Shown piece after piece: positions 21,001 through 23,895 of a stretch of DNA of 23,895 nucleotides. The stretch is from IMG/VR virus record IMGVR_UViG_2529292728_000036, one strand, 5' to 3'. Position numbers: made by a program. Source of the DNA: a virus. Lineage: Duplodnaviria; Heunggongvirae; Uroviricota; Caudoviricetes. Within the stretch, counting starts at the first letter, position 1, and every line of letters begins with the position of its first letter.

Positions 21001-23895
21001 CTCCGGATGGTTGGATAAGCTGTAGTGAGCTAATGCCGGATAAGTTAATTCCGGTAATGGTCATGTATGAAGACGGTGAGATGTGGTCTGCAATGTGGAA
21101 TGGCAATCGCTGGGGTGATGGCACCGAATATCCGGATCCGCACTCAGTTACGCACTGGCGTGAAATGCCAGCAGCACCGCAGCAGGAGGTGAAGTGATGG
21201 ACTCCTTCGCGAAATATACGATTATTGACTGGATAGCATTCCTTCAGGTTTTGCTCATCTGGTTTTATATGGCTTACAGGAGTGGGCAGTGGATTGTCAG
21301 TGTAGCCTGTAGCAAGGGATGGCGTTGGTGGAACCGAAAGAATAAAAAAGCGCTGGCCTTGGATTCGTTTTACGAAGCATTCAATCTTAACAGTCTTCAG
21401 CCTGGTTATGTCATTGTAGTCACCACTCAAAGCGGCATGACCATTCAGATTCATAAACCAAAAGAGGAAAAATGATGTGGCCTATATGTGTTAATTGCGG
21501 ACGGATGTGCCTATCTGGATGGTGCCGAAAGTGCGACAAATGCACGAAGAAAAGACAATAACAATCCTCGCACTGACGGGGATTTCTTTTATCTGAACTC
21601 GCTACGGCGAGTTTTGTTTTATGGAGATGATTATGGCCTGTTCAACATTCAACCCTTTAACGTTACAGAAATACCAGCCAGACCCTGAAGATTTATGCTC
21701 ACTGTGTGGCGGAAATCATGGTAAAGCTGCCATGATCGAATGTAAGGACAAAATCCACATATGCCTTAATTGCGTTGATGTCCTCGTTGATATCAAAAAT
21801 GAAAGAGAAGATAAAAAGCGTAGCGAGGCTATTCGCGCCTTAGATTCATGGATGCGAGATGGGTATAGTGCTGCGCAAATTTATGACTTAGCCATTTCAA
21901 AAGGCGAAATACCAGGTGTGCGAATCGAATAAGAAGCGCACTCAAGCATCTTTTGGGGAAATCACAAATGCACTTCCGAGTCACAGGTGAATTGAATGGA
22001 GAACCATTCAACAGAGTTATCGAAGCAGAGGACATCAACGACTGCTATGACCACTGGATGATATGGGCGCAGATAGCACATGCAGACGTAACCAATATTC
22101 GAATTGAAGAACTGAAAGAACACCAAGCCGCCTGATGGCGGTTTTTTTTATTGGAGACAAGAAATGTCAGATTTGGCTATGAAGGTTTTGAAATGGCAAT
22201 CGACTGGCGATGTTGGCATCAGTAGCGCAACTCTTGCCTCAATCGCATGTGGACTGAAAAAGAATATCTATGGTCATCACTTCGGCGCTCCCCATGACGC
22301 AGCCGATTTCAGACGATGCGTTGCACTTGTTGAGCAGATTCCAGAAATCAGAGATTCATTCAACAAGGTTGCAAAGCGCGTTCCGGCATTCAAAGGAATC
22401 CTCAACGAATGGGATTCCCTCGTTGCTCTGTTGAAGTCTGAAATGAAGATACACGGAAACAAAGCACCAGAGACTTACAGAAGAATCAGCGAGCTACGCA
22501 AGGACTAACCATGAAATAACACCGCCTCACACTCGGTGAGGCCTGTTCATTGCTCAATGATATCCAGACCTACCATCGCCGCATCAATGCGGCTTTTTCT
22601 TGCGTGTAATTGCGGAGACTTTGCGATGTACTTGACACTTCAGGAGTGGAACGCTCGCCAGCGACGCCCAAGAAGCCTTGAAACAGTTCGTCGATGGGTG
22701 CGCGAATGCAGGATATTCCCTCCTCCGGTTAAGGATGGAAGAGAGTATCTGTTCCACGAATCAGCGGTAAAGGTTGACTTAAATCGACCAGTAACAGGTA
22801 GCCTTTTGAAGAGGATCAGAAATGGGAAGAAGGCGAAGTCATGAGCGCCGGGATTTACCCCCTAACCTTTATATAAGAAACAATGGATATTACTGCTACA
22901 GGGACCCAAGGACGGGTAAAGAGTTTGGTTTAGGCCGAGACAGGAGGATAGCAATCACTGAAGCAATACAGGCCAATATTGAGTTACTCTCAGACAGCGG
23001 ACGCAAATCACTAATAGACAGAATTAAAGGCGGTGACGCAATCACTCTTCATGTGTGGCTTGACCGATATGAAACAATCCTCACCGAAAGGGGGATCAGG
23101 CCGAAAACTCTACTCGACTACGCCAGCAAAATCAGGGCAATCCGAAGAAAATTGCCGGACAAACCGCTCACTGACATATCAACGAAAGAAGTGGCAGCAA
23201 TGCTAAACACCTACGTAGCAGAAGGTAAAGCAGCTTCCGCAAAATTAATCAGGTCAACCCTTGTTGACGTTTTTCGTGAAGCAATAGCCGAGGGGCATGT
23301 GGCAACGAATCCGGTAACAGCAACCCGTACAGCAAAGTCAGAAGTAAGGCGCTCAAGGCTGACAGCTAATGAGTATGTCGAGATTTACCATGCAGCCGAA
23401 CCTCTCCCTATCTGGCTAAGGCTGGCGATGGATTTGGCCGTCGTTACAGGGCAGAGAGTCGGCGATTTGTGCAGAATGAAATGGTCAGACATAAACGACA
23501 ACCATCTTCACATTGAACAGAGTAAAACAGGGGCTAAACTCGCCATTCCGCTAACGCTAACGATTGACGCGCTCAATATCTCATTGGCTGATACACTACA
23601 GAAATGCAGGGAGGCCAGCAGCAGTGAAACTATAATCGCATCAAAGCATTACGATCCTCTTTCCCCGAAAACAGTATCAAAGTATTTTACAAAGGCGAGA
23701 AATGCATCTGGACTCTCATTTGATGGAAACCCGCCAACATTCCATGAACTGCGTAGCCTGTCAGCGAGGCTATACCGGAACCAGATTGGCGATAAATTTG
23801 CTCAACGTCTTCTCGGGCATAAATCAGATTCAATGGCGGCGCGGTATAGAGACAGCCGTGGACGGGAATGGGACAAAATTGAAATCGACAAATGA

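What the first reader, a model, noticed from the sequence alone, without database searches (positions are those of the whole stretch)
21968..22600. A 114-aa gene of unknown function insulated by terminators just upstream of xis-int
A hairpin + T8 terminator lies 14 bp before the gene (its loop holds the stop codon of the preceding ORF), and two hairpins, the second with a U-tract, lie between it and xis. Terminators on both sides are unusual inside the pL operon and suggest either an autonomous moron or N-dependent gating of xis/int expression. The protein has no features I recognise.
Basis: seen in the sequence. Interest (0 to 1): 0.4.

Follow-up and report, generated by a model that had tools for sequence, protein, structure and literature searches.

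The report
Phage 434 ORF114 cassette between terminators
The 114-aa gene is the already catalogued but functionally unknown ORF114 of phages 434 and HK022, a small gene cassette lying between two copies of the known terminator that guards the xis-int genes; the arrangement is ordinary for lambda-like phages, although the protein family is large and has no recognisable fold.

Summary
The window is the distal end of the pL operon of a lambdoid prophage integrated next to torS in E. coli 2013C-4538.

Bases 21966-22640 are 96% identical to phage 434. GenBank records of 434 already annotate ORF55, ORF114, the t'I terminator, the CII-dependent pI promoter and xis.

In lambda, ORF55 ends in the same stop-in-loop hairpin, and that hairpin runs straight into pI. 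ORF114 is therefore a ~450-bp presence/absence cassette lying between two terminator T-tracts.

- **What travels with the gene.** Eight of the nine ORF114 contexts carry a predicted intact upstream terminator. All nine carry a Shine-Dalgarno site and a conserved post-stop stem-loop.
- **What belongs to the neighbour.** The downstream terminator is part of the xis/pI module.
- **Not an autonomous moron.** No promoter-like site was found and the GC content is not unusual. Expression is inferred to need N-antiterminated pL transcription.
- **The protein.** It is real: dN/dS is about 0.1 and the AF2 model has pLDDT 93.5. It belongs to a large phage early-gene family (2,821 clusters). It has no Pfam, NCBIfam or PADLOC hit and no PDB fold neighbour. 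Its function remains unknown.

Interest is low to moderate.

The parts
21563..21592 (+). First of two tandem terminator-like hairpins. It is the tL4 type as annotated in phage 434, and equals t3-lambda.
   Evidence: Found by the scan. The tandem pair folds at -21.9 kcal/mol, z = -4.6. It corresponds to the sequence annotated t-L4 in M60848 and to t3-lambda in PMC4195576 Table 4.
21595..21620 (+). Second tandem hairpin (t4-lambda type) followed by TGTTTTATGGAG. The T-tract plus Shine-Dalgarno acts as a boundary sequence.
   Evidence: The same hairpin and TTTTATGGAG linker precede ORF55 in lambda and 434. They directly precede the ORF114 homologues of c341 and Emek.
21633..21932 (+). 99-aa CxxC zinc-finger ORF (phrog_3680). 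This is a different cassette placed behind the t4-type linker. It is context, not part of ORF114.
   Evidence: The PHROG match covers residues 5-103 of the 103-aa ORF call, so the real start is probably ATG 21633. It is absent from 434 and lambda at this position. It shows no similarity to Ea8.5.
21968..22135 (+). ORF55 (lambda orf55 / lambdap35; 434 ORF55).
   Evidence: 53 of 55 residues are identical to lambda NP_597778. It matches phrog_676 at 1e-38. It is annotated ORF55 in M60848.
22125..22149 (+). Upstream intrinsic-terminator-like hairpin plus T8, with the ORF55 stop in its loop. It is the homologue of the hairpin that precedes pI in lambda (t5-lambda, the lambda t'I position).
   Evidence: Lambda has the identical GCCGCCTGATGGCGG followed by T6 and then CTTGCGTGTAATTGCGG. 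It appears in PMC4195576 Table 4 as t5-lambda. Among the seven ORF114 contexts that carry this hairpin type, it is intact in six and weakened only in 434.
22153..22156 (+). Shine-Dalgarno GGAG for ORF114.
   Evidence: Read from the sequence. The motif ATTGGAGACAAGAAATG or TATGGAGACAAGAAATG is conserved in the eight closest ORF114 contexts. Emek keeps the GGAG but has a different spacer, TATGGAGTGAATGATG.
22164..22508 (+). ORF114, the 114-aa protein of the phrog_1229 family. It equals 434 ORF114 and HK022_32.
   Evidence: dN/dS is 0.02-0.28. The AF2 model has pLDDT 93.5 and is all-alpha. The profile search finds 2,821 representative clusters.
22524..22542 (+). Conserved GC-rich stem-loop without a U-tract. 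It forms the 3' end of the ORF114 cassette. Its role is unknown; an mRNA 3'-end or processing element is a guess.
   Evidence: It is present after the stop codon in 9 of 9 ORF114 contexts, whatever lies downstream. Emek carries a C-to-U change that keeps a G.U pair on this strand only.
22578..22601 (+). t'I terminator (434 type): hairpin 22578-22593 plus TTTTTCTT.
   Evidence: The hairpin is identical to the feature annotated t'-I in M60848 and annotated 'terminator PMID:6305007' in OL657226. The scan also finds it.
22600..22613 (+). CII-binding boxes TTGC-N6-TTGC of the pI promoter.
   Evidence: Pattern search; the only other well-placed match is at pRE, 10597-10610. OL657226 annotates the same site as pI. 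CII is encoded at 10323-10619 on the minus strand.
22626..22844 (+). xis (lambda-type excisionase).
   Evidence: Pfam Exc, 3.9e-41.
22822..23895 (+). int (tyrosine integrase, 357 aa). The prophage sits next to torS.

Best explanation
The 114-aa gene is ORF114 of the lambdoid phages 434 and HK022. It is a small, promoter-less gene cassette at the far end of the N-dependent pL (early-left) operon.

The cassette consists of an intrinsic terminator hairpin with its T-tract, a Shine-Dalgarno site, ORF114 and a conserved post-stop stem-loop.

Relative to lambda, it sits exactly inside the T-tract of the terminator that precedes the CII-dependent int promoter pI (t'I). As a result there is now one terminator before the gene (the lambda-type hairpin, with ORF55's stop codon in its loop) and one after it (the 434-type t'I, which abuts pI).

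Shown here: the identity with 434, the junctions, the presence/absence polymorphism, the lack of promoter-like sequences, and purifying selection on the ORF.

Inferred:
- Both hairpins stop unmodified RNA polymerase. ORF114, like xis, would then be made only from N-antiterminated pL transcripts. Stray transcription could not enter xis-int, and int alone could still be made from pI.
- The repeated 'hairpin, T-tract, GGAG' boundaries serve as short homologies through which cassettes and xis/int modules are exchanged.
- A ribosome terminating at the ORF55 stop would cover the 3' arm of the hairpin. The upstream terminator should therefore be weakened when ORF55 is being translated.

The protein is a soluble all-alpha early protein of unknown function. 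My best guess, at about 45%, is a host-directed accessory or take-over factor (a binder or inhibitor of a host protein) rather than a recombination factor.
For: Identity and annotation.
- 96% nucleotide identity with 434 over 21966-22640.
- ORF55, ORF114, tL4, t'I, pI and xis are annotated in M60848 and OL657226.

Junctions.
- Lambda has ORF55 with the same hairpin fused directly to pI/xis.
- In the spread sample of E. coli genomes, 16 of 40 hits match in two pieces spanning 232 bp of record, against the 683-bp query. That means about 450 bp are absent there. Another 14 of 40 carry ORF114.
- The junctions fall in GCGG(T/C)TTTTT on both sides.

The cassette as a unit.
- 8 of 9 contexts have a predicted intact upstream terminator within 20 nt of the ATG, of two hairpin types. 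434 retains a weakened copy.
- 9 of 9 contexts have the post-stop stem-loop.
- Huey and Escherichia sp. E1V33 keep only the last ~36-47 nt of ORF55 together with the hairpin.
- The xis/int modules downstream are of at least five kinds.

Transcription.
- 0 promoter-like sites against 6.0 +/- 2.6 expected, and 13 terminator-like sites against 4.5 +/- 2.3.
- No CII box lies before ORF114, and GC content is unremarkable.
- N lies upstream on the same strand, and CII is present.

The gene is real.
- dN/dS is 0.02-0.28, AF2 pLDDT is 93.5, and 2,821 representative clusters match at E<1e-3.

Early-gene character.
- Distant homologues lie in early, recombination or replication regions. In Vibrio phage D60 the homologue lies directly behind an 11/12 sigma-70 promoter.
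Against: - No termination assay exists for this sequence. The 434-type t'I hairpin is statistically weak by itself (z = -1.6).
- The upstream hairpin carries a destabilising mismatch in 434 itself (-7.4 kcal/mol), so it is not indispensable.
- mEp043, c341 and Emek have no terminator between the ORF114 homologue and their xis. The flanked-on-both-sides design is therefore not general.
- The promoter scan covers only sigma-70 consensus sites. A weak or activator-dependent promoter cannot be excluded.
- An IS629-like element lies between N and the rest of the operon in this prophage. Actual expression here is uncertain.
- Nothing computed here identifies the protein's target.
Confidence: 0.75

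Rival explanations
1. ORF114 is an autonomous moron. It would have its own promoter between the T8 run and the ATG (or inside ORF55) and its own terminator, would be expressed from the prophage, and would give the lysogen some benefit.
For: - It is extra DNA relative to lambda, with sharp junctions.
- Hairpins lie on both sides.
- In Vibrio phage D60 a homologue does sit behind a terminator plus an 11/12 consensus promoter.
Against: - No promoter-like site was found anywhere in 19000-23895, against 6.0 +/- 2.6 expected.
- Only 14 nt, containing just the SD, lie between the T-tract and the ATG.
- There is no CII box and no GC deviation.
- The stem-loop that travels with the gene has no U-tract. 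The true terminator downstream belongs to the pI/xis module.
Confidence: 0.07
2. ORF114 is an accessory factor of site-specific recombination, modulating excision or integration or the stability of Xis or Int. That would explain why it is kept immediately upstream of xis-int.
For: It is the last or next-to-last gene before xis/int in seven temperate contexts with unrelated xis/int types:
- lambda-type Exc;
- AlpA type in Stx2a_WGPS6;
- HK620/Sf6 type in c341 and Emek;
- SfX/HTH_17 type in mEp043;
- Enterobacter sp. 638;
- Mannheimia phage 1152AP2, at 33% identity;
- a metagenomic phage, at 36% identity.

Against: - Ten other contexts have no integrase nearby. They include Mu-like SuMu, Vibrio phages and phages where the gene is next to replication, recombination or methylase genes.
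- Lambda itself lacks the gene, and roughly 40% of matching E. coli prophages have the ORF55-pI junction without it.
- The position can be explained by cassette exchange at operon-end boundary sequences.
Confidence: 0.1
3. The hairpins are not functional terminators. They would be RNA-stability or processing elements, or merely recombination scars, and transcription would run through them regardless of N.
For: - The 22524-22542 stem-loop has no U-tract, yet it is the best conserved of the three.
- The upstream hairpin is mutated in 434.
- The t'I hairpin has only 6 bp.
Against: - Both flanking hairpins have canonical GC stems, 4-nt loops and 5-8 U.
- t'I is annotated as a terminator, with a literature reference, in two independent 434 records.
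- Terminator-like sites are about 3-fold enriched and all lie between genes.
- A non-homologous terminator occupies the same place before the xis of WGPS6 and on both sides of the Mannheimia homologue.
Confidence: 0.12

Closest known systems
Phage 434 int-xis-ORF114-ORF55 region (GenBank M60848; complete genome OL657226) and HK022 genes 31-33
   Same: The gene order is the same, and nucleotide identity is 96% over 21966-22640. The t'I hairpin, pI CII boxes and xis are identical. The ORF114 protein is 96-97% identical.
   Different: - The window has an intact upstream hairpin, where 434 carries a C-to-A mismatch.
- There is a 10-nt indel after the stop codon.
- An extra 99-aa zinc-finger cassette lies between the tL4/t4 hairpins and ORF55.
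- The integrase is 357 aa, the same length as HK022's, and the prophage is integrated at torS.
Lambda orf55 with the terminator preceding pI (t'I; 't5-lambda' of PMC4195576)
   Same: ORF55 is 96% identical. The stop-in-loop hairpin GCCGCC-TGAT-GGCGG is identical, and the pI/xis sequence after the T-tract is identical.
   Different: Lambda has no ORF114, so its hairpin is fused directly to pI. In the window about 450 bp (ORF114 plus a stem-loop plus a second hairpin) lie between them.
Morons of lambdoid phages (promoter-gene-terminator insertions; definition recalled from the HK97/HK022 genome paper, my own knowledge)
   Same: It is an extra gene present in some relatives and absent in others, inserted between two genes that are adjacent elsewhere, and bounded by hairpins.
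   Different: No promoter was found, there is no compositional difference, and the gene lies in the early operon on the same strand and depends on read-through.
N-antiterminated terminators of the lambda pL operon (tL1-tL4, t'I; established lambda biology, my own knowledge, plus the GenBank annotations)
   Same: They are intrinsic terminators between early-left genes that only N-modified polymerase passes. tL4 and t'I are annotated in the homologous 434 sequence.
   Different: In the window the t'I function is present twice, bracketing a gene.
Exo-xis region proteins (Ea8.5, Ea22, Orf60a, Orf61, Orf63, Orf73, Orf55)
   Same: ORF114 lies in the same genomic region, and these too are small, non-essential early proteins. 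Several are reported to shift the lysis-lysogeny decision (abstracts of PMC3824215 and PMC8614690, listed; section read).
   Different: ORF114 matches none of their families and is not treated in those papers. Its predicted fold has no PDB neighbour.

Membership tests
Phage 434 ORF114 / PHROG phrog_1229 | Full-length sequence match to the family profile and to the named ORF | tested here: met
   It matches phrog_1229 at E = 1.1e-51 over residues 1-114. Amino-acid identity to 434, HK022 and mEp043 is 96-99%.
Phage 434 ORF114 / PHROG phrog_1229 | Same genomic position (ORF55 - ORF114 - t'I - xis - int) | tested here: met
Moron (autonomous promoter-gene-terminator unit) | Own promoter directly upstream | tested here: not met
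   There are 0 sigma-70-like sites in 19000-23895, against 6.0 +/- 2.6 expected. Only 14 nt lie between the T8 run and the ATG. There is no CII box. The test is by consensus scan only.
Moron (autonomous promoter-gene-terminator unit) | Own terminator directly downstream, travelling with the gene | tested here: not met
   The element that travels with the gene (22524-22542) lacks a U-tract. The U-tract terminator (22578-22601) is found only with lambda-type pI/xis.
Moron (autonomous promoter-gene-terminator unit) | Present/absent between genes that are adjacent in relatives | tested here: met
   Lambda and about 40% of sampled matching E. coli prophages join ORF55 directly to pI/xis.
Moron (autonomous promoter-gene-terminator unit) | Base composition different from its neighbours | tested here: not met
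   GC is 0.46-0.48 across ORF114, against 0.42-0.50 in the flanks.
Intrinsic (Rho-independent) terminator | GC-rich stem, short loop, U-tract immediately 3' | tested here: met
   Met for 22125-22149 and 22578-22601. Not met for 22524-22542, which has no U-tract.
Intrinsic (Rho-independent) terminator | Measured termination, and read-through by N-modified polymerase | not testable with these tools
   Only annotation is available: t'-I in M60848, and 'terminator PMID:6305007' in OL657226. The cited paper is not held.
Lambda/434 t'I terminator | Lies immediately upstream of the CII boxes of pI, ahead of xis | tested here: met
   The T-tract ends at 22598 and the TTGC boxes are at 22600-22613. The hairpin is identical to 434 t'-I.
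Known exo-xis protein families (Ea8.5, Ea22, DUF1317/Orf60a, DUF1382/Orf63, Orf61, Orf73) | Profile match | tested here: not met
   ORF114 has no Pfam or NCBIfam hit. None of 69 diverse members hits Pfam.
Known anti-phage defence proteins (PADLOC) | Profile match | tested here: not met
   0 families at E <= 0.1.
Recombination directionality / integration accessory | Consistent linkage to xis/int across the whole family | tested here: not met
   It lies next to xis/int in 7 temperate contexts, but there is no integrase nearby in 10 others.

The most novel reading that the evidence does not exclude
The ORF114 family would be a new functional class of phage early protein, either an enzyme or a specific inhibitor of a host factor or defence system. 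The evidence that leaves this open is:
- at least 2,821 clusters at 50% identity;
- no Pfam model;
- a confident all-alpha predicted fold with no PDB neighbour;
- invariant S20, P43, D45, D48, R51, C52 and W83, with S21 nearly invariant, across 26-60% identical members.

Its terminator-bounded cassette form would be what lets it move between the operon ends of unrelated temperate phages.
Probability: 0.3. Interest if true: 0.55.

Novelty: already known. Interest (0 to 1): 0.25.

Why it matters
It opens no new question.

Two modest points remain of use.

1. The comparison shows concretely how a cassette can sit inside a terminator, so that the terminator function is kept on both sides. It also shows that hairpin, T-tract and Shine-Dalgarno boundaries recur as exchange points in the exo-xis region.
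2. ORF114 represents a very large, un-modelled phage protein family with a confident but unmatched fold and a sharp conserved motif. That makes it a reasonable, cheap target for functional screens (toxicity, anti-defence, lysis-lysogeny) in the well-developed 434 and HK022 systems.

Tried and rejected
- **Family scans of ORF114.** Pfam, NCBIfam and PADLOC gave nothing. Pfam also gave nothing on 69 diverse members and on 38 and 10 extended members. The one exception was a single fusion.
- **PDB by sequence.** Neither the protein, nor the family profile, nor four extended homologues gave anything below E = 0.3.
  - One homologue (P0167) is fused to a CCA-adding enzyme. Follow-up showed that fusion is a singleton on a 1.9-kb contig, and that its nearest long relative lacks the domain. 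I dropped the lead.
- **The search for related loci with family alignments.** A degenerate motif scan of viral contigs gave only 6 loci, which I did not analyse further.
- **Scan of 185,579 species genomes for the hairpin sequence.** It returned mostly chance terminators and lambda contamination, so it was not informative about cassette spread.
- **Literature.** Searches for ORF114, for accession numbers and for the t'I paper found nothing usable beyond the exo-xis papers.
- **Short direct repeats in 21400-22700.** They are at chance level.
- **Similarity of the 99-aa zinc-finger ORF to Ea8.5.** None.
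Full report
**What the window is.** The plus strand from about 13,100 to the end is the early-left (pL) operon of a lambdoid prophage.
- A cI-type repressor lies at 11064-11771, and an N antiterminator at 13355-13738.
- The cIII thermoregulator RNA element is at 16159-16217.
- bet (RecT) is at 16826-17611 and exo at 17608-18288.
- An Ea22-like gene, a dATP/dGTP pyrophosphohydrolase-DUF551 gene and DUF4752 follow, and then xis and int. CII is encoded on the other strand.
- The sequence 21968-22650 is 100% identical to the E. coli 2013C-4538 chromosome, where int is followed by torS.

**Checking the observation.**
- ORF 22164-22508 encodes 114 aa.
- The hairpin at 22125-22144 has the TGA of the preceding 55-aa ORF in its 4-nt loop. 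It is followed by T8, 14 nt before the ATG. It folds at -13.1 kcal/mol, z = -2.8.
- Between the gene and xis there is a 7-bp GC-rich hairpin without a U-tract (22524-22542).
- There is also a 6-bp hairpin followed by TTTTTCTT (22578-22601).
- Terminator-like sites are about three-fold enriched in 19000-23895 (13 against 4.5 +/- 2.3). Promoter-like sites are absent there (0 against 6.0 +/- 2.6).
- The same scan finds promoter-like sites at chance frequency around the immunity region, including a candidate pL at 13077-13105.

**What it is.**
- Megablast finds the stretch in 208 phage records. The best annotated are phage 434 (M60848 and OL657226) and HK022.
- The window is 96% identical to 434 from 21966 to 22640.
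- M60848 names the two ORFs ORF55 and ORF114. It annotates terminators t-L4 (upstream of ORF55) and t'-I (the second hairpin before xis).
- OL657226 annotates the same hairpin as a terminator with a literature reference. Immediately after it, OL657226 annotates the CII-controlled pI promoter with its TTGC-N6-TTGC boxes.
- In the window those boxes are at 22600-22613, one base after the T5 run. The only other well-placed CII box is at pRE, inside the cII start.
- HK022 annotates the gene as 'N15 early protein homolog', and ORF55 as an 'undocumented homolog present in lambda'.

**The key comparison is with lambda.**
- Lambda encodes the same ORF55 (53 of 55 residues identical).
- Its stop codon lies in the identical hairpin GCCGCC-TGAT-GGCGG. 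In lambda the T-tract of that hairpin continues directly into CTTGCGTGTAATTGCGGAGACTTTGCGATG, that is, into pI and xis.
- This is the hairpin listed as predicted terminator t5-lambda in PMC4195576.
- The hairpin that precedes ORF114 in the window is therefore the one that occupies the t'I position in lambda.
- The ~450 bp carrying ORF114 lie between two terminator T-tracts, with GCGG(T/C)TTTTT at both junctions.
- E. coli genomes show the polymorphism directly. 2,791 of 5,426 complete genomes match some part of 21968-22650, and 291 match at least 80% of it.
- In an evenly spaced sample of 40 hits, 16 match in two pieces that span only 232 bp of the record, which is the lambda arrangement. Fourteen of the 40 carry ORF114.

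**What travels with the gene.** I compared nine ORF114 contexts: the window, 434, HK022, mEp043, Huey, Stx2a_WGPS6, Escherichia sp. E1V33, Salmonella phage c341 and Emek.
- All nine have a terminator-type hairpin ending within 20 nt of the ATG, and a GGAG Shine-Dalgarno site. The eight closest share the linker (T)ATGGAGACAAGAAATG.
- Seven use the ORF55-end hairpin. It is weakened by one mismatch only in 434.
- Huey and E1V33 have lost ORF55 except for its last ~36-47 nt, which carry that hairpin.
- c341 and Emek instead use the t4-lambda-type hairpin. That hairpin precedes ORF55 in lambda and 434, and precedes the 99-aa zinc-finger ORF at 21595-21620 in the window.
- All nine keep the U-tract-less stem-loop after the stop codon. 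Emek's single stem change (C to U) preserves pairing only as G.U on the mRNA strand.
- Beyond that stem-loop the sequences diverge into different xis/int modules:
  - lambda-type Exc with t'I and pI;
  - AlpA-type xis with its own unrelated terminator (WGPS6);
  - SfX-type HTH_17 xis with no terminator (mEp043);
  - HK620/Sf6-type, with no terminator (c341, Emek).
- The upstream terminator thus belongs to the ORF114 cassette, and the downstream one belongs to the lambda-type integration module.
- In a Mannheimia phage the 33%-identical homologue is again flanked by annotated terminators and followed by a small gene and int.
- In an Enterobacter sp. 638 prophage the homologue's own stop codon sits in a GCCGCC-TGAG-GGCGG-T6 hairpin.

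**How it most likely works.**
- Shown: the gene has no promoter-like sequence, no CII box and no compositional signature of foreign DNA. It lies on the pL strand downstream of N.
- Inferred from established lambda biology (my own knowledge, consistent with the 434 annotations):
  - Only N-modified polymerase passes tL4, the ORF55-end terminator and t'I. ORF114 would then be a delayed-early product, made together with xis and int from pL.
  - Unmodified polymerase is stopped before it can enter xis-int.
  - CII-activated pI, which starts downstream of the terminator, gives int without xis.
  - Having ORF114 inserted in the terminator leaves a terminator on both sides, so this logic is preserved.
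- A further inference concerns ORF55. Because its stop codon is in the hairpin loop, a terminating ribosome would cover the 3' arm. The upstream terminator should be less efficient on translated transcripts.
- The recurrence of the hairpin, T-tract and GGAG boundaries in front of different cassettes suggests that these short conserved sequences are where exchange occurs.

**The protein.**
- It is under purifying selection, with pairwise dN/dS of 0.02-0.28 among eight phage and prophage alleles.
- The word-indexed search found only enterobacterial relatives.
- A profile search of 1.84 billion representatives found 2,821 clusters at E<1e-3 and 638 at E<1e-10. Most are 105-140 aa.
- Across 69 diverse members, S20, P43, D45, D48, R51, C52 and W83 are invariant. 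W11, G18, S21, L55 and P60 are nearly so.
- None of the members hits Pfam. The query has no NCBIfam or PADLOC hit. It belongs to phrog_1229, function unknown.
- AlphaFold2 gives a confident seven-helix model, pLDDT 93.5 and pTM 0.87.
- Distant homologues sit in early regions of many phage types:
  - in the early region of Mu-like SuMu, downstream of the transposase and gam genes;
  - behind a near-consensus promoter in Vibrio phage D60;
  - divergent from a repressor-like HTH gene and followed by a DNA methylase;
  - next to RecT/exonuclease or DnaB genes.
- The linkage to xis/int, seen in seven temperate contexts, is therefore not a property of the family. A role in recombination is unlikely.
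- I rate a host-directed accessory function as most likely (about 45%). A lysis-lysogeny modulator like other exo-xis products comes next (about 25%), then an enzyme (about 20%). None of these was tested.

**Comparison with what is known, and verdict.**
- The ORF, its neighbour ORF55, tL4, t'I and pI are all already annotated in public 434 records.
- Lambda's version of the upstream hairpin has been listed as a predicted terminator.
- Orf55 has been discussed as the last exo-xis gene of lambda.
- The finding is therefore already known as a sequence feature. The N-gating alternative agrees with the annotation.
- What this analysis adds is the demonstration that ORF114 is a cassette lodged in the t'I terminator, the definition of what travels with it, and the size and structural orphan status of its family.

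**Caveats.**
- No termination or expression data exist for this sequence.
- The promoter test is a consensus scan.
- The context survey covers seventeen homologue contexts plus eight close allele contexts, not a census.
- In this particular prophage an IS629-like element (13954-15263) separates N from the distal operon.

Noticed in passing
window 13954-15263: An IS3-family element lies in the pL operon about 215 bp downstream of N. It has 41-nt imperfect terminal inverted repeats, orfA/orfB with rve domains, and an ALIL frameshift pseudoknot at 14289-14405. At ~1,310 bp it is IS629-like. It could be polar on all distal genes, including ORF114, xis and int.
   Followed up: partly
window 11941-12843 (+): A 300-aa ORF with no Pfam match lies between the cI-like repressor and the candidate pL, in the position that rexAB holds in lambda. 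A terminator-like hairpin follows at 12865-12886. It is a candidate lysogen-expressed gene, for exclusion or defence.
   Followed up: no
window 19607-20404 (+): A 265-aa protein matches phrog_887 (queuine tRNA-ribosyltransferase-like, E = 4e-103) but has no Pfam hit. It may be a DpdA/TGT-like base-exchange enzyme sitting in the exo-xis accessory region.
   Followed up: no
window 21621-21932 (real start probably 21633): A 99-aa CxxC...CxxC zinc-finger ORF (phrog_3680, with weak ClpX zinc-finger similarity) is inserted behind the t4-lambda-type hairpin and TTTTATGGAG linker. That is exactly where ORF55 starts in lambda and 434. It is unrelated to Ea8.5.
   Followed up: partly
window 22524-22542, and the same place in L001, L004, L005, L006, L052, L096, L097, L098: A GC-rich stem-loop without a U-tract lies just after the ORF114 stop codon. 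It is conserved in all nine contexts, whatever follows it. One variant (Emek) keeps pairing through G.U on the mRNA strand only. Its role is unexplained; an mRNA 3'-end protection or processing site is a guess.
   Followed up: partly
window 1203-1477 and 6095-6293: Rfam matches above gathering score: AgvB (anti-GcvB sRNA, 1203-1262 +), STnc100 (1264-1477 -), C4 antisense RNA (6095-6178 -) with its a1/b1 target (6241-6293 -), and isrK (6204-6280 -). All lie in the rightward part of the prophage.
   Followed up: no
L024 4340-4361 (Enterobacter sp. 638 prophage): The 63%-identical ORF114 homologue ends ...AA* with its own stop codon in the loop of a GCCGCC-TGAG-GGCGG-T6 hairpin. This is nearly the same terminator that ends ORF55 in lambda and in the window. 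The stop-in-loop terminator is therefore shared between unrelated cassettes.
   Followed up: partly
L034, L035, L037, L038, L041, L044, L045, L050, L051, L055, L062, L070, L071, L074, L075, L077, L080, L082, L085, L087: About twenty GTDB species-representative assemblies of unrelated taxa carry a lambda-type ORF55-xis-int block. The taxa include Shewanella, Algoriphagus, Pseudoxanthomonas, Paenibacillus, Kitasatospora and Bradyrhizobium. ORF55 is 96% and Xis 96-100% identical to the window's proteins, often on short low-coverage contigs. This is most simply contamination with phage lambda DNA.
   Followed up: partly
proteins P0015, P0018, P0030, P0037, P0049, P0051, P0053, P0063, P0215: E. coli assemblies contain chimeric ORFs that join part or all of ORF114 to parts of Ea22-like, ERF, Kil, DUF2528 or dATP/dGTP pyrophosphohydrolase proteins. 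They are probably in-frame deletions or recombination joints within the exo-xis region, and they illustrate how fluid that region is.
   Followed up: no
L008 3394-3455 (Vibrio phage D60): Here the 41%-identical homologue sits behind a terminator (GACCGC-TTCG-GCGGTC-T5) followed at once by an 11/12 consensus sigma-70 promoter. In these phages the gene therefore heads its own transcription unit.
   Followed up: partly
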